Source of the DNA: Actinomycetes bacterium
GTDB taxonomy: Bacteria; Actinomycetota; Actinomycetes; Mycobacteriales; Mycobacteriaceae
Direction: 5' to 3'
DNA: 64,000 nt
Assembly: GCA_023461275.1 (NCBI GenBank)
Contig: JAEYMI010000022.1
Coordinates: 30,829 to 94,828, forward strand
Positions 2,378 to 58,208 of this stretch are shown here, piece by piece (positions within the stretch are counted from its first letter, which is position 1; every line of letters begins with the position of its first letter). The notes under the pieces are model-generated. The model saw only the letters and a program-made list of their open reading frames with translations, searched no databases and was not told where the DNA came from. The position numbers and the translations under genes were made by a program.

Positions 2378-2430
2378 GCTGGTTCCCGCGAACATGACTA
2401 CGGTCGCGGGAAAGAGTTGAGGTCGCGGGA
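2378..2430. repeat. 53-bp direct repeat, copy 1 (contains TTCCCGCGA-N12-TCGCGGGAA hairpin)
   Basis: GCTGGTTCCCGCGAACATGACTACGGTCGCGGGAAAGAGTTGAGGTCGCGGGA. It differs at one base from the copy at 3045-3097. Confidence 0.9.
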
Positions 2431-2655
2431 ACCTTCTCGCTGCGCGTCGCGCGCAACAACGGGCAGGTTGTCGGGCGGGTTCCCCACCGCCTCGATGAAT
2501 GCATGACGTCTGAGGCAGCTATACCCGCGTCCACGTACAGATGAGGTGCCCGGTCCGACGGATTCGAGCGTCGGGGGAAGGCATTCGCAAGGTCCTCGAC
2601 CGCAATCAGCCACCGGCGTTAAAGCGAGAATAGAACGTGCCAGAAATCAATAGAA

Positions 2656-2690
2656 AGAGCCACCGGCCGAATACTTCGGTCGGTGGCTCT
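2656..2690. terminator. Bidirectional intrinsic terminator hairpin
   Basis: AGAGCCACCGGCCGAA-TAC-TTCGGTCGGTGGCTCT has a 16-bp stem with 1 mismatch. T-rich tracts follow on both strands. It sits just downstream of the 23-aa ORF. Confidence 0.7.
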
Positions 2691-2708
2691 TTTATTGTCG
2701 CTCTGCAA

Positions 2709-2780
2709 TCAGAGGCTTCCGATTCCGGTGAGGATGACGGTGAGGAACTCGTTGATGGCGGCGAAGATGTCATGAATCAT
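2709..2780 (-). CDS. 23-aa hydrophobic/acidic small peptide MIHDIFAAINEFLTVILTGIGSL
   Basis: ATG is preceded by GGAGGG at 7-12 nt. The stop is followed by the strong hairpin terminator. The ORF is embedded in a segment of about 40% GC. It is below the ORF-track size cutoff. Confidence 0.5.
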   Translation of the reverse strand: MIHDIFAAINEFLTVILTGIGSL

Positions 2781-2831
2781 GGTAATGCCCTCCGTGAGTT
2801 GATTTTTCGCGTGATGTAGTCGCGCGACCGC

Positions 2832-2837
2832 AGCCTA
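2832..2837 (-). promoter_or_regulatory. Candidate -10 hexamer TAGGCT for the small-peptide transcript
   Basis: The minus strand reads TGTTAGGCT about 50 nt upstream of the ATG at 2780. The same hexamer recurs as a putative -10 upstream of phoU and the GT2 genes. Confidence 0.3.
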
Positions 2838-3044
2838 ACAGAACGTCGAGAAAAGATCACTCCAGCCTTTACACCGCACGATATGGTTAATCGATCGTGA
2901 ATTTCGAGGGAATATCCACCTGCCATTGTTTCAACATTAATATCGGACATAGGTGACTAAATCACCCACGAACTGCGCACTACAGCGAGCTCGCGGGGGG
3001 TTCGCCGGCGTTCGCGATGGTCGGGCCATGTTCCCGCGACCTCA

Positions 3045-3097
3045 GCTGGTTCCCGCGAACATGACTACGGTCGCGGGAAAGAGTTGAGATCGCGGGA
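3045..3097. repeat. 53-bp direct repeat, copy 2
   Basis: GCTGGTTCCCGCGAACATGACTACGGTCGCGGGAAAGAGTTGAGATCGCGGGA. It is preceded by a partial copy (CATGTTCCCGCGACC, 3027-3041). Confidence 0.9.
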
Positions 3098-5104: not shown

Positions 5105-5111
5105 CTACAAG

Positions 5112-5185
5112 TGGCCAGAGTCGGGATCGAACCGACGACCTTCCGCTTTTCAGGCGGACGCTCGTACCAACTGAGCTACCTGGCC
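5112..5185 (-). tRNA. tRNA-Phe (GAA)
   Basis: GGCCAGGTAGCTCAGTTGGTACGAGCGTCCGCCTGAAAAGCGGAAGGTCGTCGGTTCGATCCCGACTCTGGCCA. The cloverleaf folds by hand, with anticodon loop CTGAAAA. Confidence 0.95.
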
Positions 5186-5232
5186 GGGAAGGTCCGGTGA
5201 CAATACCGGAACCCTTGGCAACAAACATGTTG

Positions 5233-5306
5233 CGACCCTGACGGGACTCGAACCCGCGACCTCCGCCGTGACAGGGCGGCGCGCTAACCAACTGCGCCAC
5301 AGGGCC
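5233..5306 (-). tRNA. tRNA-Asp (GTC)
   Basis: GGCCCTGTGGCGCAGTTGGTTAGCGCGCCGCCCTGTCACGGCGGAGGTCGCGGGTTCGAGTCCCGTCAGGGTCG, with anticodon loop CTGTCAC and discriminator G. Confidence 0.95.
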
Positions 5307-5342
5307 TTGTTCAGTTATCTGCCCCCACGTAGCGGGCAGGCG

Positions 5343-5415
5343 TACCCCCTACGGGATTCGAACCCGCGCTACCGCCTTGAAAGGGCGGCGTCCTAGGCCG
5401 CTAGACGAAGGGGGC
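5343..5415 (-). tRNA. tRNA-Glu (TTC)
   Basis: GCCCCCTTCGTCTAGCGGCCTAGGACGCCGCCCTTTCAAGGCGGTAGCGCGGGTTCGAATCCCGTAGGGGGTA, with anticodon loop CTTTCAA. Confidence 0.93.
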
Positions 5416-5689
5416 CGGTGTTCTCCGTTGGGAGCCGACTTAGCTTAGGACACGCCGTGAACAATACACAAATCGCTAGGTCAACGACCCTTTTGCGCAG
5501 GTGGGGAGGCGATCGGGCAGACGCGTGACGACCGGTCGCCAAGCTCGGAGCGCACCTGGCACTCACCGACATAGCTCCGACGACGCGGATCCGACGGCAC
5601 AGGTCCGACGCCGCGACGGGCCACCTCGCGTCGACGACCGTGCAACGGGTTGTAAACTTCATGGCGCTCCGCTCCACCGGAGCAACCCA

Positions 5690-5765
5690 GCCCCTTTAGC
5701 TCAGTTGGTAGAGCTACGGACTTTTAATCCGCAGGTCCTCGGTTCGAGCCCGAGAGGGGGCACCA
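5690..5765 (+). tRNA. tRNA-Lys (TTT), CCA encoded
   Basis: GCCCCTTTAGCTCAGTTGGTAGAGCTACGGACTTTTAATCCGCAGGTCCTCGGTTCGAGCCCGAGAGGGGGCACCA. Confidence 0.95.
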
Positions 5766-5766
5766 C
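5750..5766. repeat. attL-like 17-bp direct repeat (3' end of tRNA-Lys)
   Basis: CCGAGAGGGGGCACCAC; identical to 8477-8493. Confidence 0.85.
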
Positions 5767-5792
5767 AAACCGCCTGGCAACGGGCGGTTTTT
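5767..5792 (+). terminator. Intrinsic terminator after tRNA-Lys
   Basis: AAACCGCC-TGGCAAC-GGGCGGTTTTT. Confidence 0.6.
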
Positions 5793-5880
5793 GCGTTTGC
5801 GACCCCTGTTACACACGTAGCAACCCGGCATTGCCCCGGCACCCGGGGGGCGCCGCGCCGGGTTTGTCGGTATCGATCTC

Positions 5881-5886
5881 TAGGAT
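5881..5886 (+). promoter_or_regulatory. Candidate -10 (TAGGAT) giving a leaderless or near-leaderless transcript starting at ATG 5894
   Basis: A TAnnnT hexamer lies 7 nt upstream of ATG 5894. Confidence 0.3.
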
Positions 5887-5893
5887 GTACTTC

Positions 5894-6634
5894 ATGCCGT
5901 CTTCGCTGATCACGGACGCATTAGGGCAACCCGACGATGCGTCTCAAGAACCCGCACGCAACCCCGACACCTTGCCGTCCACCGCAGACCCGAGCGGCGA
6001 GTGCCCTCGGTGCGGACGAGTGAGTAATTTCCATGTGGGAGTGACACTCCCCCTCGTCTTGCGATCTTCGTCATTCAGTGATTCCCCATTCACACGCGAG
6101 CGCGGAGTTGAGCTTGTCTGTCAAGGCTGCGGCGACTCGACCATTGTGATCGAGGAATCGCCGGGCGGTCCCTTCAGCAGATTTCGGCCGACATTCTGGT
6201 ACCCGAAGCCAGGGCACCTGCAGGACACAACTGATGTGCCGGACCCGATTGCGGGAGCGTTCGACGAAGGCGCACGGTGCGTGAGTGTCGACGCCCCAAA
6301 TGCCGCAGTTGCTATGTTTCGCAACGCACTCGCTCAAATCGTGCAAGACAAAGGCAGCGAAGAAGCCAAGAAGAAGAACACTCTCAACGAGGCGGTACAG
6401 CAAATGGTGGCCGACCGCACTCTCCACGACGGCTTCAAGGAATGGGCAGACCACGTTCGAAAGGTCGGCAACGCGGGTGCACATCAAGAATCCTGGTCGG
6501 AGATACCGATCGACCAAGCTCAAGAATTGTGCGAGCTGGTCAAGCATCTGATCGACACGCTATACATCCAGCCTGGGCGGGTCAGTCGTGCGATGCCCGC
6601 CAGAAAGCGGTCTGCGACCGCTACCGGAGACTGA
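5894..6634 (+). CDS. Zn-ribbon plus DUF4145-domain protein
   Basis: Two CxxC pairs (CPRCGRVS ... CQGCGDS) are followed by DUF4145-like AAVAMFRNALAQIV...WADHVRKVGNAGAHQES...ELVKHLIDTLY. An alternative ATG lies at 5885. The 5501 ORF-track start is rejected because it overlaps tRNA-Lys. Confidence 0.7.
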   Translation: MPSSLITDALGQPDDASQEPARNPDTLPSTADPSGECPRCGRVSNFHVGVTLPLVLRSSSFSDSPFTRERGVELVCQGCGDSTIVIEESPGGPFSRFRPTFWYPKPGHLQDTTDVPDPIAGAFDEGARCVSVDAPNAAVAMFRNALAQIVQDKGSEEAKKKNTLNEAVQQMVADRTLHDGFKEWADHVRKVGNAGAHQESWSEIPIDQAQELCELVKHLIDTLYIQPGRVSRAMPARKRSATATGD

Positions 6635-6896
6635 CCACCGTGCGGCCCCGATCCGGATTCGGAACTGCCACAGGATGACCGAGCGGGGCGCTCTTACCGC
6701 CTTCGGCCTCGGAGATGTAGTCGGCGTAAACGTTCAGCGTCGTAACGAAACTCGCGTGCCCGAGCCATTTAGACACCTGCATGTAGTGCTCGCCCGCCGA
6801 CAAACTGTTCGCTGCGGAACTGCGGCGCAGGTCGCGCCAGCGGGACGCACTGTAAGCGACGTGCCGCAAGGACCGAGCAGAGCCACAGTCGGCCAG
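6621..6896 (-). pseudogene. Tyrosine recombinase/integrase, C-terminal remnant only
   Basis: SRWRDLRRSSAANSLSAGEHYMQVSKWLGHASFVTTLNVYADYI matches the HxLRH...LGH...Y catalytic C-terminus. The frame is closed by a stop at 6897-6899 and no N-terminal domain is present. Confidence 0.7.
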
Positions 6897-7107
6897 TTAT
6901 CGGAGCTGATGGGCTCGCTCCGCTTGCATGTGGCGGCGACCCCGTCAGCCTAGGCTTGGCGCCGGGCCCTCCTGCCGATGTTAAGCGCCTGCCGTTGGCC
7001 ATCGATCGGTCACATGCTCGCCGGGCCGGTCACGGCGTGTCCCGATAAGACTGGTATCCATCTGGCGGCGATGTGACCCTCCCATGCATCTCGCATCCAT
7101 GCCGCGA

Positions 7108-7113
7108 TAGTCT
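7108..7113 (+). promoter_or_regulatory. Candidate -10 (TAGTCT) for the two-gene cassette
   Basis: A TAnnnT hexamer lies 10 nt upstream of ATG 7124. Confidence 0.25.
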
Positions 7114-7123
7114 CCGAGACCTG

Positions 7124-7585
7124 ATGACTCCGAACCCTGGGAAGAAGCAACGCCGACTAGCGGACATGGGTGTTGAGCCCGCGAGGTTCAAGTTCGAGCG
7201 ACGCGACGAAGCCGAGCTGATTCTCGACTCTCCCATCCCACTTTCCCCAGAAGGTGACCACCTGCACCTGCGGCAGTGGTGCTACCGAGGGAAAATTGTC
7301 GACTTTGCCATCATGCAGTACCTCACCCCGTCGCATCCCGACAACTCGGGCTCGGATGGTAACTCAGATGTAGCACGAATAGATACGTCTCACAGCGAGG
7401 TGCACAAGCATCAGTACTTTCGGGACGGACGCGAGCAAGTCCGATCTGTGATCAAATCACTACAGGATGCCGATAGTCTGGAACATGCCGAGGAGATGAT
7501 AGATGCATGCTTCGACGCCTGTAACGATGACATGAGCGAGCACTGGGTCGACCATTTGGACACTTGGAGAGGGGATACGCCATGA
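7124..7585 (+). CDS. Hypothetical protein (islet cargo gene A; His-rich core ARIDTSHSEVHKHQY)
   Basis: The ORF-track frame is 7073-7585. The start is chosen at MTPNPGKK. The stop overlaps the next start (ATGA at 7582-7585). Confidence 0.6.
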   Translation: MTPNPGKKQRRLADMGVEPARFKFERRDEAELILDSPIPLSPEGDHLHLRQWCYRGKIVDFAIMQYLTPSHPDNSGSDGNSDVARIDTSHSEVHKHQYFRDGREQVRSVIKSLQDADSLEHAEEMIDACFDACNDDMSEHWVDHLDTWRGDTP

Positions 7586-8034
7586 GCGGTAACCACGACC
7601 GCATTCGCGGTCGCCTTGCCACCGTGCGGATCTTCACCGCCATGATGCGCAACGACAACTTCCGCCGATCCTTCGCCGAACGTTCCGGCTGGACCCCAAA
7701 CTCGCCAATTGTGCCGTGCGAGTCAAACACGCTGTTTGGCGAAGTGTATGAGATGGCCATACCTGCCCTCGATGAGTCCGGCGCCACCGTTGCAGCGATC
7801 CCAGTGCTGGCGATGACGCCACAGACGGACGACTCCGACGACAAACTAACACTGTCATTGACTGTTGTGAGTCTACGAAAGCACGTTAGCGGAGAAGCGA
7901 CCCCTGAGGATGCAATCGACATCGACAGCATCAGCCACGAGGTCACAATGGCACAGGTCTGTGAAACTCTTGCGCCAGCCAAGAAGTGGGACATATCTGA
8001 CTGCGTGGCGCCGACGTCAACGACCGGTGCCTGA
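7582..8034 (+). CDS. Hypothetical acidic protein (islet cargo gene B)
   Basis: Starts MSGNHDRIRGRLATV; the ORF-track frame is 7564-8034. It is translationally coupled to gene A by a 4-nt overlap. Confidence 0.6.
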   Translation: MSGNHDRIRGRLATVRIFTAMMRNDNFRRSFAERSGWTPNSPIVPCESNTLFGEVYEMAIPALDESGATVAAIPVLAMTPQTDDSDDKLTLSLTVVSLRKHVSGEATPEDAIDIDSISHEVTMAQVCETLAPAKKWDISDCVAPTSTTGA

Positions 8035-8113
8035 GCTCGTGTAGTTAGGGCGCGTCGCATCGTTCAGATCGTCTTCGAACCGGTCCGATACATGATGTTC
8101 AGTGTCATCGACG

Positions 8114-8147
8114 CCTGAACGCGCAGAACATCCGCTGCGCGTTCAGG
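8114..8147 (+). terminator. Perfect 13-bp stem-loop downstream of the cassette
   Basis: CCTGAACGCGCAG-AACATCCG-CTGCGCGTTCAGG lies 80 nt after the stop at 8034. There is no clear U-tract. Confidence 0.45.
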
Positions 8148-8476
8148 ACGCTCGCATCGCTGACGCGCCATAGGTCGTGCGGTGTGAACCTTCGAAGGAC
8201 AGCTCGAATCTATACGCGCCGATCGAACTAACCATGATATGCTGGCGTCTTTGACCCGTATCGGATTTTGACCTCGTTCGCTCGGGAACAGCAGTCCACC
8301 CTTTCAGCCCTGCCAAGTTCGCGACGTCGGTGCACCGATGCCTGAACATCCCACATCGACGTCTGATGGAATCCAACGCGGACGTCCATCCACCACAGCA
8401 GATGAACGTCAGGACCAGGATCAGCCCCCAATGATGTCGCCTGCAGCGTCAACGAGCGCTTCCGACCCGCGCGGTA

Positions 8477-8493
8477 CCGAGAGGGGGCACCAC
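8477..8493. repeat. attR-like 17-bp direct repeat
   Basis: CCGAGAGGGGGCACCAC; identical to the tRNA-Lys 3' end. Confidence 0.85.
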
Positions 8494-8573
8494 GCAGGCA
8501 GCGATGTCGGGTGTTCATTTGGCGTAATCCGCTTTACCCGCGACGGATCCGAAAGCAAAAGTAGGATCCGAGA

Positions 8574-10769
8574 GTGGCTGTGCAGAATTCGCAATCTTCG
8601 ATACTCAAATCACTTCGGGTGTACGACCCGGGCCACACCTGGCTGATTTACGCGACGTCGACGACGATCGCGACGGCGTTGGGGATTCTGGTTGCCCATT
8701 TCGTCATCGCAGCCACCCACGGACCCGACATCCTGCTGGTGACCGGCGGCATCATCGGCATGGTCGCATTCGGCGCGACCGGTGACGTCACCGCGAAGGC
8801 CCGCTGGCTGACGTCGGTGACCGTGATCGTCCCGGCGCTGGCCGCAGCAGCTCTGGCCGTCGTCCTGACGCATCACTCCCCCGCCGAGATCGTCGTAGCG
8901 GTGCCACTGGCCGGATTCGGCATCTGGGTACGACGATTCGGTTGGCGCGGCCTGGCCGTGGGTGGCGTCGTCTTCTTCGCCTACCTGATGGCGATCTTGG
9001 CCATGCGCGAGCCCGGGGCGAACATGCATCAGATCCTCCTCGTCGTCGGAGGCGCGCTTGCCTGCGGTGTGTTTCTGCGGACGGTGATGCTGATCGAGTT
9101 CCCGACACGTCGACTACGGCTTCACCTTCGCCAGTTTCGGGCGTCGTGCGCCGAAGCACTCGAGCGATCCCAACGACCCGGAACCGACGCCGAGATGCTG
9201 GTGCCGGTAAGCCACCTGCCCGACCTCACGCTGGCCATGGACGGATGGCTCCACCAGTTCGACGTCACATCGCTCGGCGTGGACCCGAACAAGCTGCGCC
9301 GCAGTATGTTCGACGCACAGAGCGCAACCGAGCTCGCATGCGAACAACTGCAGTCGCTGACGAGAGCCGGCGTCGATCCGCATGCCGATCCCACCCTCTC
9401 CGACGTCCTCGACACGCTGATGGCACTTGTCCGCGGCGAGCCGTCGAGCCACGACGCCACCGCTGCAGAAGCCCTGGCACGCTCGACGATCGCCACGGTC
9501 GATCCGTCGACTCCGCTCGGCCTGGCAACACTTTTCGTGTCCCGCGCGGTACTGGCACATCTCGACGTCGACGACGCAGCACACGCCGATCCCAAGCCTG
9601 CCGGCCCCAACCCTGCCGATCCCGACCTCGCTGACCCCGACCCGGCCGAAACCGCTCCACCCCAACCTGATTCGACCGATACAGACATCCCGCACCCGGC
9701 CACGCACGCCGCCACCGACACTGCGGCCGTCGTGCGGTGGTGGGATCACATGCGGCCCACCTCCCGGATGGCCATTCAGGTGATGGCAGCGACGGCGATC
9801 GCAGCGGGTGTGGGACAGGCGATGGCGGCCGGACGCTGGTATTGGGCGGTGATGACGACGTTCATCGTGTTCATGACCGCCGCAACCCGGGCCGACGTCC
9901 TGACGAAATCGTCATGGCGCGTAATCGGAACCGTGGTGGGGGTCGCGTTCGGTGCGGTGGTGGCAATCCTGCTCGTCGGTCACCCGCTCCCGCTGTCCAT
10001 CCTCTTCCTGGTCTGCGTGTTCTTCGGCTACTACTATCAGGGCTCCAATAACGGCATTCCCACCATCTTCTTCACCGTTCAGTTCGCGGTCATCTACGCG
10101 CTCTTGGGTTTCCATAACTGGACCCTGGCCTTCGTTCGGCTCGACGAAACCATCGTGGGCGCGATCATCGGCGTGATCTGCGCCTACCTCGTCACGTCGA
10201 AACGATCCGATGGCGCGGTGGCCGCCAGCGTCGACAAATACTTTGCGGCACTTGATCATCTGATCACCTCCTGCGGTGACGCACAGACCACCGCGAATCA
10301 GACGCAACCTGTCGTCGACGCGGCGATCACTCTCGACAACGCGCATCAGGCGGTCCGCTCGACGCTGTCGAACATGGCGGCGGCGATGCTCGTCGGGACC
10401 GGCGCACGACGCCGCGCTCGGTCAGTGCACCTCGACCGCCTCACGCGAAGTGCGCACGTGCTGGCGCAGACATCGGCTGCGCTGTCTGCCGACCCATCAC
10501 TGGTGTACACCGGGTCCGATGCCGAAGTGGTGCGGACTGCGGTCCGTCGGCTGCGAGACGACGCCGAGGACCTCCATCAGATCTATCTGGAACGACAACC
10601 CGCGGCCCCCGCCGAACCACGTGAATCGTTGGCGCAGTTGCTCAGTGGCGTCGACGCGCGACCGGACACCCCCCGCGGGGCAGGCGTCGCGGCGTCGGTC
10701 CGACTGGACCATCTCCTCCGAACGCTTCCGGACACCGTCGCCGCTCCCGCTCTTTCCAGCCGGGAATAA
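8574..10769 (+). CDS. FUSC-family (fusaric acid resistance/aromatic acid exporter-like) membrane protein
   Basis: 731 aa with two hydrophobic halves. The second half contains RWYWAVMTTFIVFMTAATRADVLTKSSWRVIGTVVGVAFG, typical of FUSC/YccS. Confidence 0.8.
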   Translation: MAVQNSQSSILKSLRVYDPGHTWLIYATSTTIATALGILVAHFVIAATHGPDILLVTGGIIGMVAFGATGDVTAKARWLTSVTVIVPALAAAALAVVLTHHSPAEIVVAVPLAGFGIWVRRFGWRGLAVGGVVFFAYLMAILAMREPGANMHQILLVVGGALACGVFLRTVMLIEFPTRRLRLHLRQFRASCAEALERSQRPGTDAEMLVPVSHLPDLTLAMDGWLHQFDVTSLGVDPNKLRRSMFDAQSATELACEQLQSLTRAGVDPHADPTLSDVLDTLMALVRGEPSSHDATAAEALARSTIATVDPSTPLGLATLFVSRAVLAHLDVDDAAHADPKPAGPNPADPDLADPDPAETAPPQPDSTDTDIPHPATHAATDTAAVVRWWDHMRPTSRMAIQVMAATAIAAGVGQAMAAGRWYWAVMTTFIVFMTAATRADVLTKSSWRVIGTVVGVAFGAVVAILLVGHPLPLSILFLVCVFFGYYYQGSNNGIPTIFFTVQFAVIYALLGFHNWTLAFVRLDETIVGAIIGVICAYLVTSKRSDGAVAASVDKYFAALDHLITSCGDAQTTANQTQPVVDAAITLDNAHQAVRSTLSNMAAAMLVGTGARRRARSVHLDRLTRSAHVLAQTSAALSADPSLVYTGSDAEVVRTAVRRLRDDAEDLHQIYLERQPAAPAEPRESLAQLLSGVDARPDTPRGAGVAASVRLDHLLRTLPDTVAAPALSSRE

Positions 10770-10865
10770 GCTGCTCGGAGACGTGACAGCGCAGTCACTT
10801 GTGCTCGCAGCGATCGCGCGGCCGGCATTCAGGGTCCTTCCAGCTGAGGTCGCCATGATCGACCC

Positions 10866-12344
10866 ATGACTGCTGTGACCGAGCCGCCTGCGCTGACCCA
10901 CCCGCCTGCCGTGTCAGGCCCGCAGGCCGATGACGCCTCGTCCGAGCCGACCTCGGGCCGCAGTGTTCCGCGCTGGCTTCGATGGGCCGTGATCGGCGCG
11001 ATCCTCACGGTCGGCTTGGTGATCCGGTATCAGTTCGTCGACGTCACCACGATGGACTACAGCAATTTCATCAGTCGGTGGTATTCGACGCTCGACGAGC
11101 AGGGGTTCTCGGCCTTCAAAACCAGGTTCGCCGACTACAACTATCCCTACCTGTATCTGCTCTGGATGTTGACGGTGACCCACATACCGTCGCTGATCGG
11201 AGCCAAGGCGCTGTCGGTGGCCTTCGACGTCGTGTTGGCGTTCTTCGCATATCGGATTGTGGCGCTTCGGTCGCCGAGTTTCTGGATTCGCGCACTGGCG
11301 TTCGGGCTGATCTTCTTGCTGCCCTCGGTGATTGCCAACAGTTCCTACTGGGGGCAGGCGGACGCGATCTACTCCGCGTGCGCCCTGGGCGGGGTGTACT
11401 TCTTGCTGCGCAGCGATCCGATCACTCGCGGCAACGCGATCTGGGCATGCGTATTCTTCGGTCTGGCAATTAGTTTCAAACTACAGGCCGTCTTCGTTGT
11501 GCCGATTCTATTGTGGCTGTTGGTTCGTCGGGCCATTCCGTGGTACTCACTGCTGGCGATCCCGGCGGTCTTCGTGGCGCTGGAGGTGCCGGCGATCGTC
11601 GCCGGCGCGCCGGTGAGTACTGCACTGTCGGTCTACCTGGATCAGACCGACTCATACAAGTCGCTGACGCTTGGCGCGGCCAATCTGTATCAGCTCATTC
11701 CGATTTCGGGCGACGTCAGCTGGCTCGCGCACCTGGGGATCGCAGCGGCTGCGACCGTCATCCTGGCGTTCCTCGGCTGGTCGGTCTATAAACGCCCTCC
11801 GGTGACCCGCGAGACGATCCTCGTCGTCGCCACCGCGAGCGCAGTGATCGTGCCATTCCTCCTGCCGTCGATGCACGAACGCTACTTCTACACAGCCGAG
11901 ATCCTGACTGTAGTGATGGCGTTCTACCTTCCGATGCGCTACTGGATCATCCCAATCCTGGTGCAGGCAGCCGCGATTGGCGTCTACCACTCCTCGCTCA
12001 GTGGCGAACAAGGACACGGGGGCATGCCAGGACAGGGTGGCGGTCTCCGACCCCAGGGCGACCCGGGTGGTGCCACACCCCCGCAGGGCGGTCAGGGTCA
12101 GGCCGGTTGGGGCCACGGCGCAGGCGGCCCGGGTGGTCAGGGTGGTCAGGGCGGTCAAGGCGGGGGCCCGGGTGGTCATTCAGGCGGAATGCCGGGTTCG
12201 ACGAGCGGTTACAGCTCGGGACGTGGCGATGCCGTACTGAGCGTCTACGCCGCGTTCATGGCCGCGGCCGCGCTCGGGATGATCGCGACGGTCGTGAGTC
12301 GATTGCGCGAGGCCTGGCCGGATCGTCGCCCAGACACGCTCTGA
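10866..12344 (+). CDS. GT-C-fold membrane glycosyltransferase (Gpi18/DUF2029-like mannosyltransferase family) with a Gly/Gln-rich insertion
   Basis: 492 aa and polytopic, with YNYPYLYLLW, SYWGQADAIY, FKLQAV and HERYFY motifs. There is a low-complexity GGQGGQGGQGGGPGG loop before the last TM helix. Confidence 0.65.
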   Translation: MTAVTEPPALTHPPAVSGPQADDASSEPTSGRSVPRWLRWAVIGAILTVGLVIRYQFVDVTTMDYSNFISRWYSTLDEQGFSAFKTRFADYNYPYLYLLWMLTVTHIPSLIGAKALSVAFDVVLAFFAYRIVALRSPSFWIRALAFGLIFLLPSVIANSSYWGQADAIYSACALGGVYFLLRSDPITRGNAIWACVFFGLAISFKLQAVFVVPILLWLLVRRAIPWYSLLAIPAVFVALEVPAIVAGAPVSTALSVYLDQTDSYKSLTLGAANLYQLIPISGDVSWLAHLGIAAAATVILAFLGWSVYKRPPVTRETILVVATASAVIVPFLLPSMHERYFYTAEILTVVMAFYLPMRYWIIPILVQAAAIGVYHSSLSGEQGHGGMPGQGGGLRPQGDPGGATPPQGGQGQAGWGHGAGGPGGQGGQGGQGGGPGGHSGGMPGSTSGYSSGRGDAVLSVYAAFMAAAALGMIATVVSRLREAWPDRRPDTL

Positions 12345-12360
12345 GGTCTACGCTGCACCC

Positions 12361-12717
12361 ATGGAAGTACTACGCCATGTAATAGTTCTGGTGCATCTCG
12401 TCGGCTTCGCCATGACGCTTGGCGCGTGGATCGTCGAACTGACCGCGCGTCGACTTCGTTTCACCAGGCTGATGGACTACGGCCTGCTGGTGATGCTGGT
12501 CTCCGGAGTGATTCTGGCGCTCCCGTGGCCCGAGGGTTTCTCCCCCAACTACGTCAAGATCGGCGTCAAGTTGGCCATCCTCATCGTCCTCGGCGGCGTC
12601 CTCGGCATGGGCAGCGCGCGGCAGCGTCGAACCGGCGAAGCAGTCCCGGCGCCACTGTTCTACGCCGCAGGGCTGTTGACCTTGGCCGCAGCCGCGATCG
12701 CGGTCATCTGGCGCTGA
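12361..12717 (+). CDS. Small integral membrane protein (4 predicted TM helices)
   Basis: 118-aa hydrophobic ORF with high GC3. Confidence 0.65.
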   Translation: MEVLRHVIVLVHLVGFAMTLGAWIVELTARRLRFTRLMDYGLLVMLVSGVILALPWPEGFSPNYVKIGVKLAILIVLGGVLGMGSARQRRTGEAVPAPLFYAAGLLTLAAAAIAVIWR

Positions 12718-12748
12718 GCCGACGCCTCACAGAGCCGACGAGGGTCGG

Positions 12749-55372: not shown

Positions 55373-55526
55373 CTGTCAGCCCTCGACCGGCCCGACCGCT
55401 GGTCGAGTGCCGTATCGAGTCCGTCCGCGGTCCGATCATCTACACCTCTTTCAAGCGAACGCATGACGGCGCTGCAATTCGGCAGGCGTTAGAGTTGCGA
55501 AGCGGTCACGGAGTTGAGGGGGCAGT

Positions 55527-55841
55527 ATGACGCCACGAGTGTCAGTCACGCCGGAGGAATTGTCGTCGGCCGGAAGCACGCTGAACGGCTACGGCCAGGC
55601 CATTCGCAACGTCGAGGCACCGACGTTCGGGTCAGTGGCTAACTCACTGCAAGGCTTCACCACCGGTACCGCGGCATCTGAGCTAGGACGTGTGGTGGCC
55701 ACATCCTTGACAACGATCGCATGCCGCCACGAGGAACTCGGCGATGCGATGAGCTGCGGATCGTCGACCTACCAGGACGCCGACGATCAGGCTGCCCACA
55801 GATTGAAGGCGGTTGGCGACCTGAACTCCGGCGGGCGGTAA
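55527..55841 (+). CDS. Type VII secretion target (EspC/DUF2580-like) small helical protein
   Basis: 104 aa. RBS GAGGGGG. Starts MTPRVSVTPEELSSAGSTL. A C-terminal YQDAD gives the YxxxD motif. Confidence 0.65.
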   Translation: MTPRVSVTPEELSSAGSTLNGYGQAIRNVEAPTFGSVANSLQGFTTGTAASELGRVVATSLTTIACRHEELGDAMSCGSSTYQDADDQAAHRLKAVGDLNSGGR

Positions 55842-55844
55842 CCC

Positions 55845-58208
55845 ATGACCCGGATGACACGCGCTGTCGTGGAGAACGCACACCTCGACCCGTTGGACTC
55901 GGCGTCAACATCTCTGAGTCCTGTCGAAAAGGCCATCGATGACAACGCGGAGAACATGCACCGCACGGTTCACGGCTTGGCATGGACAGGGACGGGGCGA
56001 ACCGAGGCACTAGGACGGGCGGATGCCGAGCGGACGCAGATGCGACGAGTCAGCGATGCCGCTAGCGACCTGGCGAAGGCCTTCAGCCACGGTAAGCACA
56101 CGATGGCGCCAATGGTGGACTCGCTCAAGACCTCTGCCGCACATCTCACCGAAGCCGACTTCAATGTTGCGCAAGACTGGACCGTCACCGACGGTTACCA
56201 GTACGGGCTCGCCGAGGCCACGTATGCGGACAATCCGCAGAAGATGCGCGAGCTTCACGAACTCCAACGCAAGCGTGCCGAAGAAGCCAAGAACGCCACG
56301 GTTCGGCTGCAGAGGCTTGCGCATGAACTAGAAGCCGCCGACGACGACACCGCCAAAGCGATCCGTGCAGCCAAGCACCGGCTCGAAGCGATGGCACCCG
56401 CGAGCAAAGCCATGAGTTGGAAACAGGCCAAGCTGGACGTGGAGTCGCTGCGCGATGGGCACCCAACTCCCGAACAATTGGCGCGATTGCGCGCGGCTAC
56501 TCATCTGAGTCCGCAGGATATGGCGTCACTTGCAGCGGGCAAGCCTACGAACATTTCGCAAGGGCAATTCGACTACCTGCAGAGCATGATGCGCCAACTA
56601 CACGGCGTCAGCCTGCAGGACATGCTCGACATTAACAAGCAGGCGCCCGGGCTGCTCGGCGACGGGTTCCGGCTCATGTCCATGCCGAACCTCCAGACCG
56701 AAGGCGGCAGCCGCGGTGGGATGGACGAACTGCCGATCCCGATTCGGACGCTACTTCAGCAGAATCCGATCCTGGTGACCACGCACGTACCGAACACACT
56801 GGGCGCACCAATCCAGGCCATGACCGCCATTCCCCGACTCGGTGACTTCAATGCTCTCAACACACTTCTCGGTGAGGGAAACCAGAATCTTCGGCTCGGC
56901 GCCGACGTGGATCGTGGGCTACTCAAGCAGGCATCTGAGATTTCCTCCGTAATGGGGCCGCGGGGAAGTCACGACTATTACGGAACCTACGACAATCGCC
57001 AGGATCTCGGCTCGATTCGGCAGACGGTTGACGCGATGCTCCACAACGGCGGAGGAGACCACCAAGCGGTCGCCGATTTCCTCACCGGAGACAACATGGC
57101 GTCCACAGTGACACCGGGAAGCCACTACCACGCCGATTCACACCTGCGGGGGCTGCTCGAGCAAAAGTGGATGCCCGATGAGCTGGGCGCCAAGTCGATG
57201 ATGCACTGGATTGGTGGCGCAGCCGACGACCACGGTTACGAGAGTGTCCTGGGCGGCCGGTCGGCTGACGCTCTGGCGAAATACATGGTCGCCCATCACG
57301 ATGAACTGGCCTACATCGGACCCAAGGGCGGACCGTACTCATCCCTTGGAATTCTCAACCCTGAACTCACGCAGGAAATCTCACGAAGCCTATCGCCGTA
57401 CTTCCCGAACTTCGCCGGCTATCCGAGTGACCTGTTACTCAACCACACTGCCGGCCCGCTCGCCGACACTGACGATTTCGGGAAGTTGATCGGCCTGCTG
57501 GGTACTGATAAGAAGGCCGGCGACATCGCTATTCTCAGCGCAACGTCGTGGGAGAACTATGCGGCCCACGAATACGGCGAGGATCCGATGAACGTCGGAC
57601 TGGGAACCTCCGCAAGTCACTTACACCAGTCCGTCGCGGCCGGAATTGGCGACGCGCAGAAGATTCTGCAATCAAACCAAGAATGGACGTCGGAGGTCGA
57701 GTACGACGATAAGCAAAAGAAGGCGGCCAACATACTTGGGTTTCTGCAGGGCCTCAACATTCCCGGCCTCAGCGACGCCGCTACGATGGCCGGCCCCGAG
57801 ATCGCAGACCAGTACGCCGGGCAGAAACCTGGCGACCCCTCGCTATCGCATTCTTGGCAAGGCCAGATTGAGGGCTACAACAAGACGTACGACGGTATGA
57901 CGGGTGGCGTCGCGCGACAATACCAGATTGCGAGCGGATATCTAGAGGACCACCCCGAGATTATTGATCGACACTGGAAGGCAGATGACGGGTCTGATAT
58001 TAACTTCTTCCAAAAAGACAAAAATGGACATGTTGAATTCAACCCAGCTGCTATTCGAAAGAATTCAATTGATTTCGAAAGATTCCTCAAGGAAAAAGGT
58101 GTTCCGCTATCGGACTACCTCCAGAGTTACGATGCGCGAACAGCAGGAACAACGATTGACAACGAAACTCGCCAACTCCCGAGTGTCGCCACCAAACCGC
58201 CGGGATAG
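55845..58208 (+). CDS. Large putative T7SS substrate with an N-terminal WxG-type helical domain
   Basis: 787 aa. A WTG (WxG) lies in a helix-turn-helix N-terminus (HGLAWTGTGRTEALGRADAE). GC is reduced, and the last 250 nt or so are 37% GC. Confidence 0.6.
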   Translation: MTRMTRAVVENAHLDPLDSASTSLSPVEKAIDDNAENMHRTVHGLAWTGTGRTEALGRADAERTQMRRVSDAASDLAKAFSHGKHTMAPMVDSLKTSAAHLTEADFNVAQDWTVTDGYQYGLAEATYADNPQKMRELHELQRKRAEEAKNATVRLQRLAHELEAADDDTAKAIRAAKHRLEAMAPASKAMSWKQAKLDVESLRDGHPTPEQLARLRAATHLSPQDMASLAAGKPTNISQGQFDYLQSMMRQLHGVSLQDMLDINKQAPGLLGDGFRLMSMPNLQTEGGSRGGMDELPIPIRTLLQQNPILVTTHVPNTLGAPIQAMTAIPRLGDFNALNTLLGEGNQNLRLGADVDRGLLKQASEISSVMGPRGSHDYYGTYDNRQDLGSIRQTVDAMLHNGGGDHQAVADFLTGDNMASTVTPGSHYHADSHLRGLLEQKWMPDELGAKSMMHWIGGAADDHGYESVLGGRSADALAKYMVAHHDELAYIGPKGGPYSSLGILNPELTQEISRSLSPYFPNFAGYPSDLLLNHTAGPLADTDDFGKLIGLLGTDKKAGDIAILSATSWENYAAHEYGEDPMNVGLGTSASHLHQSVAAGIGDAQKILQSNQEWTSEVEYDDKQKKAANILGFLQGLNIPGLSDAATMAGPEIADQYAGQKPGDPSLSHSWQGQIEGYNKTYDGMTGGVARQYQIASGYLEDHPEIIDRHWKADDGSDINFFQKDKNGHVEFNPAAIRKNSIDFERFLKEKGVPLSDYLQSYDARTAGTTIDNETRQLPSVATKPPG

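What the first reader, a model, noticed from the sequence alone, without database searches (positions are those of the whole stretch)
5750..8493. Decayed 2.7-kb integrative islet at tRNA-Lys with intact 17-bp att repeats
The last 16 nt of tRNA-Lys plus one flanking base (CCGAGAGGGGGCACCAC) recur exactly at 8477-8493. Between the repeats lie the following:
- a 3' fragment only of a tyrosine recombinase (6621-6896, minus strand), overlapped at its end by the DUF4145 gene;
- three intact-looking cargo ORFs;
- about 440 bp with no convincing gene.

GC is clearly lower than in the flanks. The picture is an immobilised islet that has kept only its cargo, and such cargo is frequently phage-defence or toxin-antitoxin genes.
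Basis: seen in the sequence. Interest (0 to 1): 0.7.

Follow-up and report, generated by a model that had tools for sequence, protein, structure and literature searches.

The report
Decayed tRNA-Lys islet carrying defence genes
A 2.7-kb leftover of a phage-like mobile element sits at the end of a lysine tRNA gene in a Gordonia genome; it has lost its integrase but keeps a likely anti-phage RNase gene and an uncharacterised gene pair, which is an ordinary kind of genomic islet, though here it is confirmed by an empty site in a sister strain.

Summary
tRNA-Lys(UUU) lies at 5690-5765. The 17-mer CCGAGAGGGGGCACCAC occurs exactly twice, at 5750-5766 and 8477-8493. A metagenomic Gordonia contig that is 98-99% identical in both flanks has one 17-mer and runs straight from tRNA-Lys into the FUSC gene, so it is an empty site. 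The 2,727-bp insert has lower GC than the window (59.6% vs 65.2%).

**Cargo**
- **ORF1 (5894-6634)** is a full-length RAZR/PD-T7-4-like protein: a Cys4 zinc ribbon plus a DUF4145/HEPN domain with R-x7-H.
- **Integrase remnant (6621-6896, minus strand)** keeps only about the last 75-90 codons of a 425-460-aa integrase.
- **ORF3 (7124-7585, DUF7718) and ORF4 (7582-8034)** form an overlapping pair. The pair recurs beside a prophage in Gordonia sp. L191 and just after tRNA-Ser in Corynebacterium. An ORF3 homologue with a doubtful ORF4-like partner sits next to the immunity repressor of Gordonia phage Frokostdame.

In Rhodococcus and related contigs, ORF1 homologues lie tail-to-tail with intact integrases at the edge of elements that carry a primase and, in one case, a capsid gene. 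The islet is therefore a truncated prophage or satellite remnant.

This is a new member of a known kind; a DUF4145 gene at the end of a tRNA-integrated Mycobacterium abscessus island is already published. Interest is low to moderate. The DUF7718 pair is the only really open item.

The parts
5690..5765 (+). tRNA-Lys(UUU), the integration target; intact and identical to the copy at the empty site
   Evidence: ARAGORN; Rfam tRNA 67.4 bits; identical in L004
5750..5766 (+). attL core: left copy of the 17-bp direct repeat (tRNA 3' end plus 1 nt)
   Evidence: Exact match, 2 copies in the window, 0.01 expected; one copy in the empty-site contig L004
5767..5800 (+). Terminator-like hairpin plus T-run supplied by the element directly after the tRNA
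   Evidence: 10-bp stem, 6 GC pairs, followed by TTGCGTTTGC; absent from the empty site
5894..6634 (+). ORF1: RAZR/PD-T7-4-like gene encoding a Cys4 zinc ribbon plus a DUF4145 (HEPN-like RNase) domain; 246 aa (alternative ATG at 5885)
   Evidence: Pfam DUF4145 9.6e-13. PADLOC PD-T7-4 1.4e-9 over 15-202/211 of the model. phrog_1305 5.5e-27. Invariant C37/C40/C76/C79, and R189...H197 as R-x7-H, in 28 homologues. AF2 pLDDT 83.8. Foldseek top hits are HEPN domains.
6621..6896 (-). Tyrosine-integrase pseudogene: C-terminal ~75-90 codons only (keeps LGH...Y; the HxxR His is replaced by Arg); overlaps the ORF1 stop by 14 bp
   Evidence: Translation with upstream stops in all frames. phrog_1 2e-5. Pfam 0.063. 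tblastn to residues 354-428 of the 429-aa L014 integrase, E 5e-4, ending at the same stop position.
6897..7123 (.). Spacer with no recognisable gene (GC 64.8%); presumed deletion scar where the rest of the integrase and the element backbone once lay
   Evidence: No integrase similarity upstream of 6896; no similarity to any fetched locus
7124..7585 (+). ORF3: DUF7718 protein, 153 aa, conserved ARIDxxHxxVHxHQ(F/Y) motif
   Evidence: Pfam DUF7718 25.1 bits against a cut-off of 25. About 200 representative clusters. Invariant D87, H94, H96, W148. AF2 pLDDT 94.5, a 6-strand sheet plus 2 helices.
7582..8034 (+). ORF4: partner of ORF3, 150 aa, no known family; ATGA start/stop overlap with ORF3
   Evidence: No hit in Pfam, PHROGs, NCBIfam or PADLOC. 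47% identical to the gene following the ORF3 homologue in Gordonia sp. L191. 24% identical, E 3e-8, to the one in the Corynebacterium-type contig L012.
8035..8476 (.). Non-coding right arm: perfect 13-bp hairpin at 8114-8147 and three copies of a 15-nt motif (8106, 8333, 8354), which may be a terminator and relic integrase arm sites
   Evidence: the repeat finder D1 and I6. The motif is not enriched window-wide (8 found against 4.6 expected) but is clustered here. No Rfam or protein-family hit.
8477..8493 (+). attR core: right copy of the 17-bp repeat
   Evidence: homology with the empty-site contig resumes exactly here
8574..10769 (+). FUSC-family membrane protein gene, the chromosomal right flank (not part of the islet)
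   Evidence: Pfam FUSC_2 3.6e-18; directly follows tRNA-Lys in L004

Best explanation
The segment 5767-8493 is the eroded remnant of a phage-like integrative element (a prophage or a phage satellite).

**Integration (shown).** The element inserted by tyrosine-recombinase site-specific recombination into the 3' end of tRNA-Lys(UUU) in a Gordonia chromosome. This rebuilt the tRNA end and left a second copy of the 17-bp core at the far side.

**Decay (partly inferred).** An internal deletion then removed about 80% of the integrase gene and, by inference, the replication, structural and regulatory backbone. The element can no longer excise on its own.

**What survived**
- ORF1, the outermost gene next to attL. 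It is a RAZR/PD-T7-4-type single-gene abortive-infection RNase. By analogy with E. coli RAZR, it would oligomerise around ring-shaped phage proteins such as portals, which would switch on its HEPN RNase and shut down translation in infected cells.
- The short integrase tail that overlaps ORF1's 3' end.
- A translationally coupled DUF7718 + partner pair that travels with prophages and tRNA-adjacent islets in Mycobacteriales. It is most likely another lysogen-expressed defence or toxin-antitoxin-like module.

**Status of each step.** The insertion, the truncation, the domain architecture and the contexts of homologues are shown here. The nature of the ancestor, the defence activity of ORF1 and any role of ORF3-ORF4 are inferred.
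For: **Insertion at tRNA-Lys**
- The exact 17-bp repeats are at the tRNA 3' end.
- The empty-site allele has a single core in a 98-99% identical background, and the alignment breakpoints fall exactly on the core.
- GC and GC3 are low.

**Truncated integrase**
- The integrase is reduced to its last ~75 residues.

**ORF1 and its usual setting**
- ORF1 homologues (60-64% identical) in Rhodococcus rhodochrous and in metagenomic contigs lie convergent with full 425-460-aa integrases, their ends overlapping by 4 bp. They sit at the edge of elements with a Prim-Pol/AAA_25 primase, a resolvase-like gene and, in L019, a major head protein (phrog_3990, 1e-102).
- ORF1 matches the PADLOC PD-T7-4 model end to end.
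- It shares RAZR's zinc ribbon + DUF4145 layout and the R-x7-H spacing of the catalytic R146/H154.
- Its model gives an HEPN-like fold.

**Precedents**
- A DUF4145 gene at the extreme end of a tRNA-Leu-integrated candidate PICI in M. abscessus is linked to phage resistance (PMC10465359).
- The tRNA-Lys 3' end matches attP-like sites in many actinophages, including Gordonia phages.

**ORF3-ORF4 as mobile cargo**
- The pair lies beside tail and lysin genes in Gordonia sp. L191.
- It lies right after tRNA-Ser in Corynebacterium.
- An ORF3 homologue lies directly downstream of the immunity repressor in Gordonia phage Frokostdame.
Against: - No intact progenitor with this integrase lineage at tRNA-Lys was found. 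The attL and attR junction patterns gave no hits in metagenome or viral contigs, and the islet DNA has no match in phage or plasmid collections.
- The integrase remnant is only about 25% identical to the integrases next to ORF1 homologues, and its family scores are weak.
- The link to RAZR rests on profile and architecture. E. coli RAZR itself was not retrieved by PDB sequence or fold search.
- ORF3 and ORF4 match no defence model, and no informative structural relative was found.
- The direction of the event (gain here versus precise loss in the sister strain) is inferred from composition and gene content. It was not observed.
Confidence: 0.85

Rival explanations
1. The 2.7 kb is ancestral and the sister strain lost it, either by site-specific excision or by recombination between the two 17-mers. 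The polymorphism would then reflect loss rather than gain.
For: An empty site with one core is the product of either gain or precise loss. A hypervariable tract at 5486-5645 and four SNPs at 8496-8505 bracket the region, so its local history is complex.
Against: Low GC and GC3 and mobile-element gene content mark the segment as foreign. With the integrase destroyed, precise excision is unlikely unless it happened before the decay. Even under this rival the segment is still an integrative element.
Confidence: 0.1
2. The islet is a composite of two independent insertions at the same tRNA-Lys hot spot: one brought ORF1 + integrase and the other brought ORF3-ORF4. The internal att copy has since been lost.
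For: Composition is heterogeneous: the integrase remnant and spacer are about 64.5-65% GC, against 55.6-59% for ORF1, ORF3 and ORF4. ORF1 and the ORF3-ORF4 pair never co-occur in the other loci examined. tRNA-Lys is a frequent actinophage target.
Against: There is no internal degenerate copy of the tRNA 3' end above chance: best local score 20 against a shuffle mean of 19.8, and no 17-mer with 4 or fewer mismatches. A single element with mosaic cargo explains the same data.
Confidence: 0.15
3. The element was never large. It is a minimal, integrase-less 'defence islet' that is moved in trans by a helper integrase encoded elsewhere, and the integrase-like fragment is incidental.
For: Both att cores are perfectly intact. 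The right arm has three clustered 15-nt repeats that could be arm-type binding sites.
Against: The fragment is co-linear with the C-terminus of real integrases, and sits in the same tail-to-tail position as in intact elements. This is what a truncation would leave. No related integrase is present in the 64-kb window. The repeat evidence is weak.
Confidence: 0.07
4. The 17-bp repeat is a coincidence and the region is ordinary chromosome.
For: None beyond the short length of the repeat.
Against: The expected count is 0.01. The breakpoints of the empty-site allele coincide with the repeat to the base. The composition is foreign.
Confidence: 0.01

Closest known systems
RAZR (PD-T7-4), the ring-activated zinc-finger RNase of E. 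coli (Nature 2026, PMC13017515; originally found in the Vassallo et al. functional selection)
   Same: It is a single gene. It has an N-terminal Cys4 zinc ribbon and a C-terminal DUF4145/HEPN-like domain with catalytic Arg and His eight positions apart. ORF1 matches the PADLOC PD-T7-4 profile over 89% of the model.
   Different: ORF1 is actinobacterial and about 35 residues longer at the N-terminus. No pairwise comparison with E. coli RAZR was possible. Activity, oligomerisation and phage trigger are untested.
Candidate PICI of Mycobacterium abscessus GD01, integrated at tRNA-Leu, with the DUF4145 gene EXM25_05825 at its extreme end (Nat Microbiol 2023, PMC10465359)
   Same: It is also in Mycobacteriales. 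It is a tRNA-integrated phage-related island with a DUF4145 gene as the outermost gene next to an att site, and that gene is implicated in phage resistance.
   Different: That island is about 12 kb and apparently complete. The window element is a 2.7-kb remnant at tRNA-Lys with a dead integrase. Homology between the two DUF4145 proteins was not tested.
Integrative elements carrying DUF4145 + tyrosine integrase + Prim-Pol primase (and in one case a capsid gene) in Rhodococcus and related contigs (L014, L015-17, L019-21)
   Same: ORF1 homologues are 60-64% identical and show the same convergent, end-overlapping arrangement with the integrase at the element's edge.
   Different: Those elements are intact, sit next to a pseudouridine-synthase gene rather than tRNA-Lys, and have integrases only about 25% identical to the remnant. 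None carries ORF3-ORF4.
Prophage-encoded defence genes expressed with the immunity repressor in actinobacteriophages (for example the Gordonia phage Frokostdame gp44-gp43-gp42 operon)
   Same: A DUF7718 homologue (gp43, 31% identical, pairwise E 9e-11) directly follows the repressor gene and overlaps a small downstream gene. The layout parallels ORF3-ORF4.
   Different: Homology of gp42 to ORF4 is doubtful (E 0.005 over 32 residues). No function is known for gp43 or gp42. That lysogen-expressed genes in this position are often defence genes is general knowledge of the field, not something tested here.
TumE-TumA toxin-antitoxin superfamily (DUF6516; Nature 2023, PMC10584680)
   Same: Both are small alpha+beta proteins (an antiparallel sheet packed against two helices) in a bicistronic pair on mobile DNA.
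   Different: None of 41 DUF7718 relatives matches DUF6516, even at E up to 10. In this pair the DUF7718 gene is upstream. Both products are acidic. No structural comparison was possible.

Membership tests
tRNA-integrated genomic island / integrative element (tyrosine-recombinase type) | Insertion at the 3' end of a tRNA gene, flanked by direct repeats that duplicate the tRNA 3' end | tested here: met
   The 17-bp exact repeat includes the last 16 nt of tRNA-Lys
tRNA-integrated genomic island / integrative element (tyrosine-recombinase type) | Presence/absence polymorphism with an empty site carrying one core copy | tested here: met
   L004 has a single 17-mer, with tRNA-Lys followed directly by FUSC; flanks are 98-99% identical
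tRNA-integrated genomic island / integrative element (tyrosine-recombinase type) | Composition distinct from the host backbone | tested here: met
   GC 59.6% against 65.2%; GC3 0.64-0.68 against 0.77-0.83
tRNA-integrated genomic island / integrative element (tyrosine-recombinase type) | A functional integrase encoded in cis | tested here: not met
   Only the last ~75-90 codons remain, with stops upstream in all frames and the HxxR His replaced by Arg. It is therefore a remnant, not an active element.
RAZR / PD-T7-4 | Match to the PADLOC PD-T7-4 profile over most of its length | tested here: met
   E 1.4e-9, 35.8 bits, model positions 15-202 of 211, protein residues 39-244
RAZR / PD-T7-4 | N-terminal Cys4 zinc-ribbon domain | tested here: met
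   CPRC...CQGC. The four Cys are invariant in 28 homologues. The model shows a beta-rich N-terminal domain.
RAZR / PD-T7-4 | C-terminal DUF4145/HEPN-like domain with catalytic Arg and His (R146/H154 in E. coli RAZR, i.e. R-x7-H) | tested here: met
   Pfam DUF4145 9.6e-13. R189-x7-H197 lies within the invariant GNAGAH. Foldseek top hits are HEPN domains (2q00, 7bxo, 7ae6; probability 0.90-0.98, but E only about 0.1). The motif is described.
RAZR / PD-T7-4 | Abortive-infection phage defence, activated by assembly around ring-shaped phage proteins, with RNA cleavage | not testable with these tools
   Needs phage challenge and biochemistry; known only for E. coli RAZR
Phage satellite (PICI-like) or prophage | Integrase plus replication (primase/rep), regulatory and packaging or structural genes within one att-bounded element | tested here: not met
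   The window holds only ORF1, an integrase stub and ORF3-ORF4. Relatives of ORF1 sit in elements with an integrase, a Prim-Pol primase and, in L019, a major head protein. This supports descent from such an element but not current membership.
Pfam DUF7718 | Score at or above the Pfam gathering threshold | tested here: met
   ORF3 (153-aa form) scores 25.1 bits against a cut-off of 25.0, which is marginal. 38 of 41 relatives match at E<=0.01 (40 at E<=10), best E 2.6e-15.
TumE-TumA toxin-antitoxin (DUF6516) | Sequence membership in DUF6516 | tested here: not met
   No DUF6516 hit for ORF3 or 40 relatives at E up to 10
TumE-TumA toxin-antitoxin (DUF6516) | Seven-strand antiparallel sheet packed against two helices | tested here: inconclusive
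   The AF2 model (pLDDT 94.5) has six strands plus two C-terminal helices. No TumE structure or sequence was available for comparison.
TumE-TumA toxin-antitoxin (DUF6516) | Toxicity neutralised by the bicistronic partner | not testable with these tools
   The bicistronic overlap is present (ATGA at 7582-7585), but toxicity needs an experiment
Integration-dependent-immunity temperate phages targeting tRNA-Lys (for example Gordonia phage Meyran) | attP core inside the repressor gene, next to a short tyrosine integrase | tested here: not met
   Meyran has this layout. The window has no repressor gene, and its integrase remnant has no tblastn match in phages. In Meyran the integrase's 5' end faces the att site, whereas in the window the remnant's 3' end faces attL.

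The most novel reading that the evidence does not exclude
The DUF7718 + partner pair (ORF3-ORF4) is an undescribed two-gene anti-phage or toxin-antitoxin-like module of Mycobacteriales mobile elements. It would be expressed from lysogens and islets, as suggested by its position next to the immunity repressor in phage Frokostdame. It uses a conserved Asp/His cluster (D87, H94, H96) on a fold with no solved relative.

A secondary idea concerns ORF1. The conserved tail-to-tail overlap of RAZR-like genes with integrase genes may be functional (for example a shared terminator, or transcriptional interference linking excision to defence). That would explain why exactly the integrase 3' stub survived here.
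Probability: 0.3. Interest if true: 0.5.

Novelty: new member of a known kind. Interest (0 to 1): 0.3.

Why it matters
- **A clean worked example.** The islet shows how bacterial chromosomes keep useful cargo from mobile elements while discarding the mobility machinery. The empty-site allele in a strain about 1.5% diverged shows that insertion and reduction to 2.7 kb happened within a species' lifetime, unless the already-decayed islet arrived from another strain by homologous recombination.
- **RAZR in actinobacteria.** It extends the recently characterised RAZR/PD-T7-4 defence family to Gordonia, Rhodococcus and Nocardia. It also shows a recurrent position for that gene: outermost in the element, tail-to-tail with the integrase.
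- **A candidate for testing.** It flags a small, rarely sampled gene pair (DUF7718 + partner) that moves among prophages and tRNA-adjacent islets. Gordonia and Mycobacterium have large phage collections available for such a test.
- **Overall.** None of this overturns current views.

Tried and rejected
- **G. jacobaea as an empty site.** The only genome-contig hit (G. jacobaea, FUSC 83% identical) does not have tRNA-Lys next to FUSC, so it could not serve.
- **More distant relatives of the left flank.** Contigs with a 79% identical arylsulfotransferase have lost synteny with the tRNA cluster.
- **Islet DNA in collections.** blastn against phages and plasmids gave no match.
- **Cargo proteins in viral contigs.** No relatives were found.
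- **attL and attR junction patterns.** No hits in metagenome contigs or viral contigs.
- **Integrase remnant.** No match by tblastn in phages or in PDB sequences.
- **ORF1 against PDB sequences.** No hit, so RAZR itself was not retrieved.
- **ORF3 model.** Foldseek against PDB and BFVD returned only noise.
- **TumE link.** No DUF6516 hits, and the paper's supplement holds no sequences for a profile comparison. It is rejected as membership and kept only as a loose analogy.
- **Internal third att copy (tandem accretion).** Nothing above chance.
- **ORF4 against a 342-aa protein in the L015 element.** The similarity suggested by tblastx is not real.
- **Direct repeat of the tRNA-Ser 3' end around the Corynebacterium cassette.** None was found.
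- **P0134 (Gordonia sp. X0973).** The context look-up failed.

Full report
**1. The observation**

ARAGORN finds four tRNA genes in the window. These are tRNA-Phe, tRNA-Asp and tRNA-Glu on the minus strand (5111-5415) and tRNA-Lys(UUU) on the plus strand at 5690-5765.

The 17-mer CCGAGAGGGGGCACCAC occurs exactly at 5750-5766 and 8477-8493. It occurs nowhere else in the 64 kb, even with two mismatches allowed, against 0.01 expected from shuffles. Read against the tRNA, it covers the 3' strand of the T stem, the acceptor stem, the discriminator base, the encoded CCA and one further base. The identity does not extend beyond these 17 bp.

**2. The decisive test: an empty site**

The genome-contig scan with the FUSC protein returned only Gordonia jacobaea (83% identity). 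This places the window in Gordonia. In that species, however, FUSC is not next to tRNA-Lys, so the locus was uninformative.

I then searched with the left-flank arylsulfotransferase and found a 99% identical protein (P0001) on a 95.6-kb ENA metagenome contig. That contig (L004) has three relevant features:
- the same four tRNA genes;
- one copy of the 17-mer, at 11889-11905;
- the FUSC gene starting 81 bp after it.

Megablast of L004 against the window gives 98.3-99.2% identity in both flanks. One alignment ends at window 5766. The next starts at window 8477. The two overlap on the 17-mer in L004.

A same-strain Logan contig carries the islet unchanged.

**3. Composition**

The islet is 59.6% GC against 65.2% for the window, which is the 4.7th percentile of same-size windows. 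GC3 of the three cargo genes is 0.64-0.68, against 0.77-0.83 in flanking genes. The integrase stub and the adjacent spacer are about 64.5-65% GC, so the islet is itself mosaic.

**4. Anatomy**

*Left end.* Immediately after the tRNA, the element supplies a terminator-like hairpin with a T-run (5767-5800).

*ORF1 (5894-6634, with an alternative start at 5885).* The evidence is:
- Pfam DUF4145, E 9.6e-13;
- PADLOC PD-T7-4, E 1.4e-9, covering positions 15-202 of 211 in the model;
- phrog_1305, E 5.5e-27.

PD-T7-4 was renamed RAZR in a 2026 Nature paper. It has an N-terminal Cys4 zinc ribbon and a C-terminal DUF4145 domain that is a divergent HEPN RNase with catalytic R146 and H154. It is activated by assembling around ring-shaped phage proteins, and it cleaves RNA in an abortive-infection response.

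ORF1 has the same layout. In an alignment of 28 homologues from Rhodococcus, Gordonia and Nocardia, the four cysteines and the block GNAGAH are invariant. R189 lies eight positions before H197, the same spacing as in RAZR. The AlphaFold2 model (pLDDT 83.8) has a beta-rich N-terminal domain and a helical C-terminal domain. The best PDB matches of the helical domain are HEPN domains (2q00, 7bxo, 7ae6, 5yep; probability 0.82-0.98), though the E-values are only about 0.1-0.4. RAZR itself was not retrieved by sequence or fold search.

*Integrase remnant (6621-6896, minus strand).* This fragment translates to ...WRDLRRSSAANSLSAGEHYMQVSKWLGHASFVTTLNVYADY... followed by a stop, and all frames have stops upstream of it. 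Family scores are weak:
- Pfam Phage_integrase, E 0.063;
- phrog_1, E 2e-5.

It nevertheless aligns co-linearly with residues 354-428 of a 429-aa integrase (L014), E 5e-4, and ends at the equivalent stop. So about 80% of the gene is missing. The His of the HxxR motif is Arg in the remnant.

*Spacer (6897-7123).* Nothing is recognisable here.

*ORF3 (7124-7585) and ORF4 (7582-8034).* The two overlap by ATGA.

*Right arm (8035-8476).* This stretch has no gene or Rfam match. It contains a perfect 13-bp hairpin (8114-8147) and three clustered copies of a 15-nt motif. These could be a terminator and relic arm-type sites, but the statistics are weak.

**5. What intact relatives look like**

Context look-ups for ORF1 homologues covered P0128 in R. 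rhodochrous, P0127 in a JGI metagenome and Logan contigs, and P0125 in Logan contigs. In each case the DUF4145 gene is the first gene inside an inserted element. It is convergent with a full-length 425-460-aa tyrosine integrase, and their ends overlap by 4 bp. Behind the integrase, the contigs that extend far enough carry a Prim-Pol/AAA_25 primase preceded by a resolvase-like gene (L014-L017) or small unassigned genes (L019), and in L019 also a major head protein (phrog_3990, E 1e-102).

These elements sit next to a pseudouridine-synthase gene, not a tRNA. Their integrases are only about 25% identical to the window's stub. So the DUF4145-integrase module recurs with different integrase lineages and different targets.

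The window keeps the same tail-to-tail geometry, with a 14-bp overlap. This argues that the stub is a truncated integrase and not an incidental ORF.

There is a published precedent. In M. abscessus GD01, a candidate PICI integrated at tRNA-Leu carries a DUF4145 gene at its extreme end. Transposon insertions upstream of that gene confer phage resistance.

The tRNA-Lys 3' end is also a common actinophage target. A 45-nt query from it matches 260 phage records. These include Gordonia phages Meyran, Bunker and Dogfish, where the match lies inside the immunity-repressor gene next to a tyrosine integrase. Meyran also encodes an ORF1 homologue as gp1, 39.5% identical. The window's stub has no detectable similarity to phage integrases. 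Its orientation relative to att also differs from the Meyran layout. The progenitor was therefore not a Meyran-type phage.

**6. The ORF3-ORF4 pair**

ORF3 just reaches the Pfam DUF7718 threshold (25.1 bits against 25.0). Of 41 related sequences, 38 match at E<=0.01 and 40 at E<=10.

An exhaustive profile search finds about 200 representative clusters of roughly 140-aa proteins. Residues D87, H94, H96 and W148 are invariant, and the motif ARIDxxHxxVHxHQ(F/Y) is conserved. The AlphaFold2 model is confident (pLDDT 94.5) and shows a six-stranded antiparallel sheet followed by two helices. Neither PDB nor BFVD gives a meaningful match. ORF4 has no family.

The pair recurs in other settings:
- In Gordonia sp. 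L191 (WP_283818986.1 and WP_283818987.1) the two genes are 55% and 47% identical to ORF3 and ORF4. They overlap by 4 bp and lie about 2 kb from a block of prophage lysin and tail genes.
- In Corynebacterium wankanglinii and in skin-metagenome contigs, the pair lies immediately 3' of tRNA-Ser(GGA). ORF3 is 42-43% identical and ORF4 24%. Both genes are frameshifted in C. wankanglinii.
- In Gordonia phage Frokostdame, a DUF7718 homologue (gp43) directly follows the immunity repressor and overlaps a small downstream gene. Homology of that downstream gene to ORF4 is doubtful.

The pair is therefore mobile-element cargo found near att sites and immunity genes, where lysogen-expressed accessory genes usually sit.

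I considered the TumE-TumA toxin-antitoxin superfamily because its fold is described in similar terms. No member of the ORF3 family hits DUF6516 even at E up to 10, so membership is not supported. Both products are acidic, and no PADLOC model matches them or their homologues. A defence or toxin-antitoxin-like role is an inference from context only.

**7. Mechanism and history**

*Shown*
- Insertion at the tRNA-Lys 3' end with duplication of a 17-bp core.
- A sister strain without the insert.
- A truncated integrase.
- Three full-length cargo genes.

*Inferred*
- The ancestor was a prophage or satellite of the int/Prim-Pol type.
- An internal deletion removed its backbone.
- ORF1 survives because it protects the host against phages in the RAZR manner.
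- The integrase stub survives because it overlaps ORF1's 3' end.

I found no internal degenerate att copy that would indicate two tandem insertions. The mosaic GC and the fact that ORF1 and ORF3-ORF4 do not co-occur elsewhere leave that possibility open. No related integrase lies in the window, so the islet is immobile unless a helper integrase exists elsewhere in the genome.

*Two small unexplained details*
- Four substitutions relative to L004 lie at 8496-8505, directly after attR, followed by about 300 bp with none. In L004 this stretch forms a near-palindrome followed by a T-rich run, which may be the original tRNA terminator.
- The spacer between tRNA-Glu and tRNA-Lys (5486-5645) is hypervariable and includes a 48-bp indel.

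Either detail could reflect relaxed constraint, or import of the occupied allele by homologous recombination.

**8. Verdict**

It is an ordinary kind of object, a decayed tRNA-associated islet that retains defence-type cargo. It has close published and database precedents, so I class it as a new member of a known kind, with low to moderate interest. The open item worth an experiment is the DUF7718 + partner pair.

Noticed in passing
window 2378-3097 (compare L004 6535-9284): This is a second strain-variable locus. A palindrome-rich repeat of about 55-67 bp (TTCCCGCGACC...GGTCGCGGGAA) flanks a 600-bp low-GC (51%) segment in the window. In the sister contig L004 the same repeats flank a different 2.6-kb segment with 98-, 362- and 278-aa genes; the 278-aa gene has a weak NTP_transf_8 hit. 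None of the three matches PADLOC.
   Followed up: partly
window 55400-58000: This is the lowest-GC stretch of the window (about 57-58% against 65%). It may be another foreign segment.
   Followed up: no
window 10750-12745: The 492-aa membrane protein gene downstream of FUSC has a Gly/Gln-rich tail. It is absent from the syntenic region of G. jacobaea, where homology resumes at window 12746.
   Followed up: no
window 8496-8505 and 5486-5645: Four substitutions relative to the empty-site strain lie within 10 bp directly after attR, followed by none for about 300 bp. The tRNA-Glu/tRNA-Lys spacer is hypervariable and has a 48-bp indel. Background divergence is about 1-3 differences per 100 bp. This is unexplained. 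Possible causes are relaxed constraint on the old tRNA terminator, or a trace of homologous recombination.
   Followed up: partly
L001 9900-9970 (G. jacobaea, upstream of FUSC): FUSC is not adjacent to tRNA-Lys in G. jacobaea. Homology with the window begins about 30-50 bp after the attR position. The sequence just before it (GGGAGTGGCACCTCG) loosely resembles the att core. It could be a relic of an older, larger insertion, but this is speculative.
   Followed up: no
L011 9800-10873; L012 241-1303; L013: In Corynebacterium wankanglinii and in the two short metagenome contigs (L013 from human skin), the DUF7718 + partner pair lies immediately 3' of tRNA-Ser(GGA), with no detectable repeat of the tRNA end. 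In C. wankanglinii both genes appear frameshifted.
   Followed up: partly
L024 94-783 and L025 3446-3802 (Gordonia phage Meyran): Meyran encodes a RAZR-like protein as gene 1, next to the terminase genes. It also has a tRNA-Lys 3'-end-like sequence inside its immunity-repressor gene 34, beside a short tyrosine integrase. This is the layout of integration-dependent immunity.
   Followed up: partly
L014 8735-8738; L015 8681-8684; L019 5557-5560; window 6621-6634: RAZR-like DUF4145 genes and tyrosine-integrase genes are convergent with overlapping stop regions in every intact element examined. This holds even though the window's integrase stub is only about 25% identical to those integrases (which are 65-85% identical to one another). 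The arrangement may be functional.
   Followed up: partly
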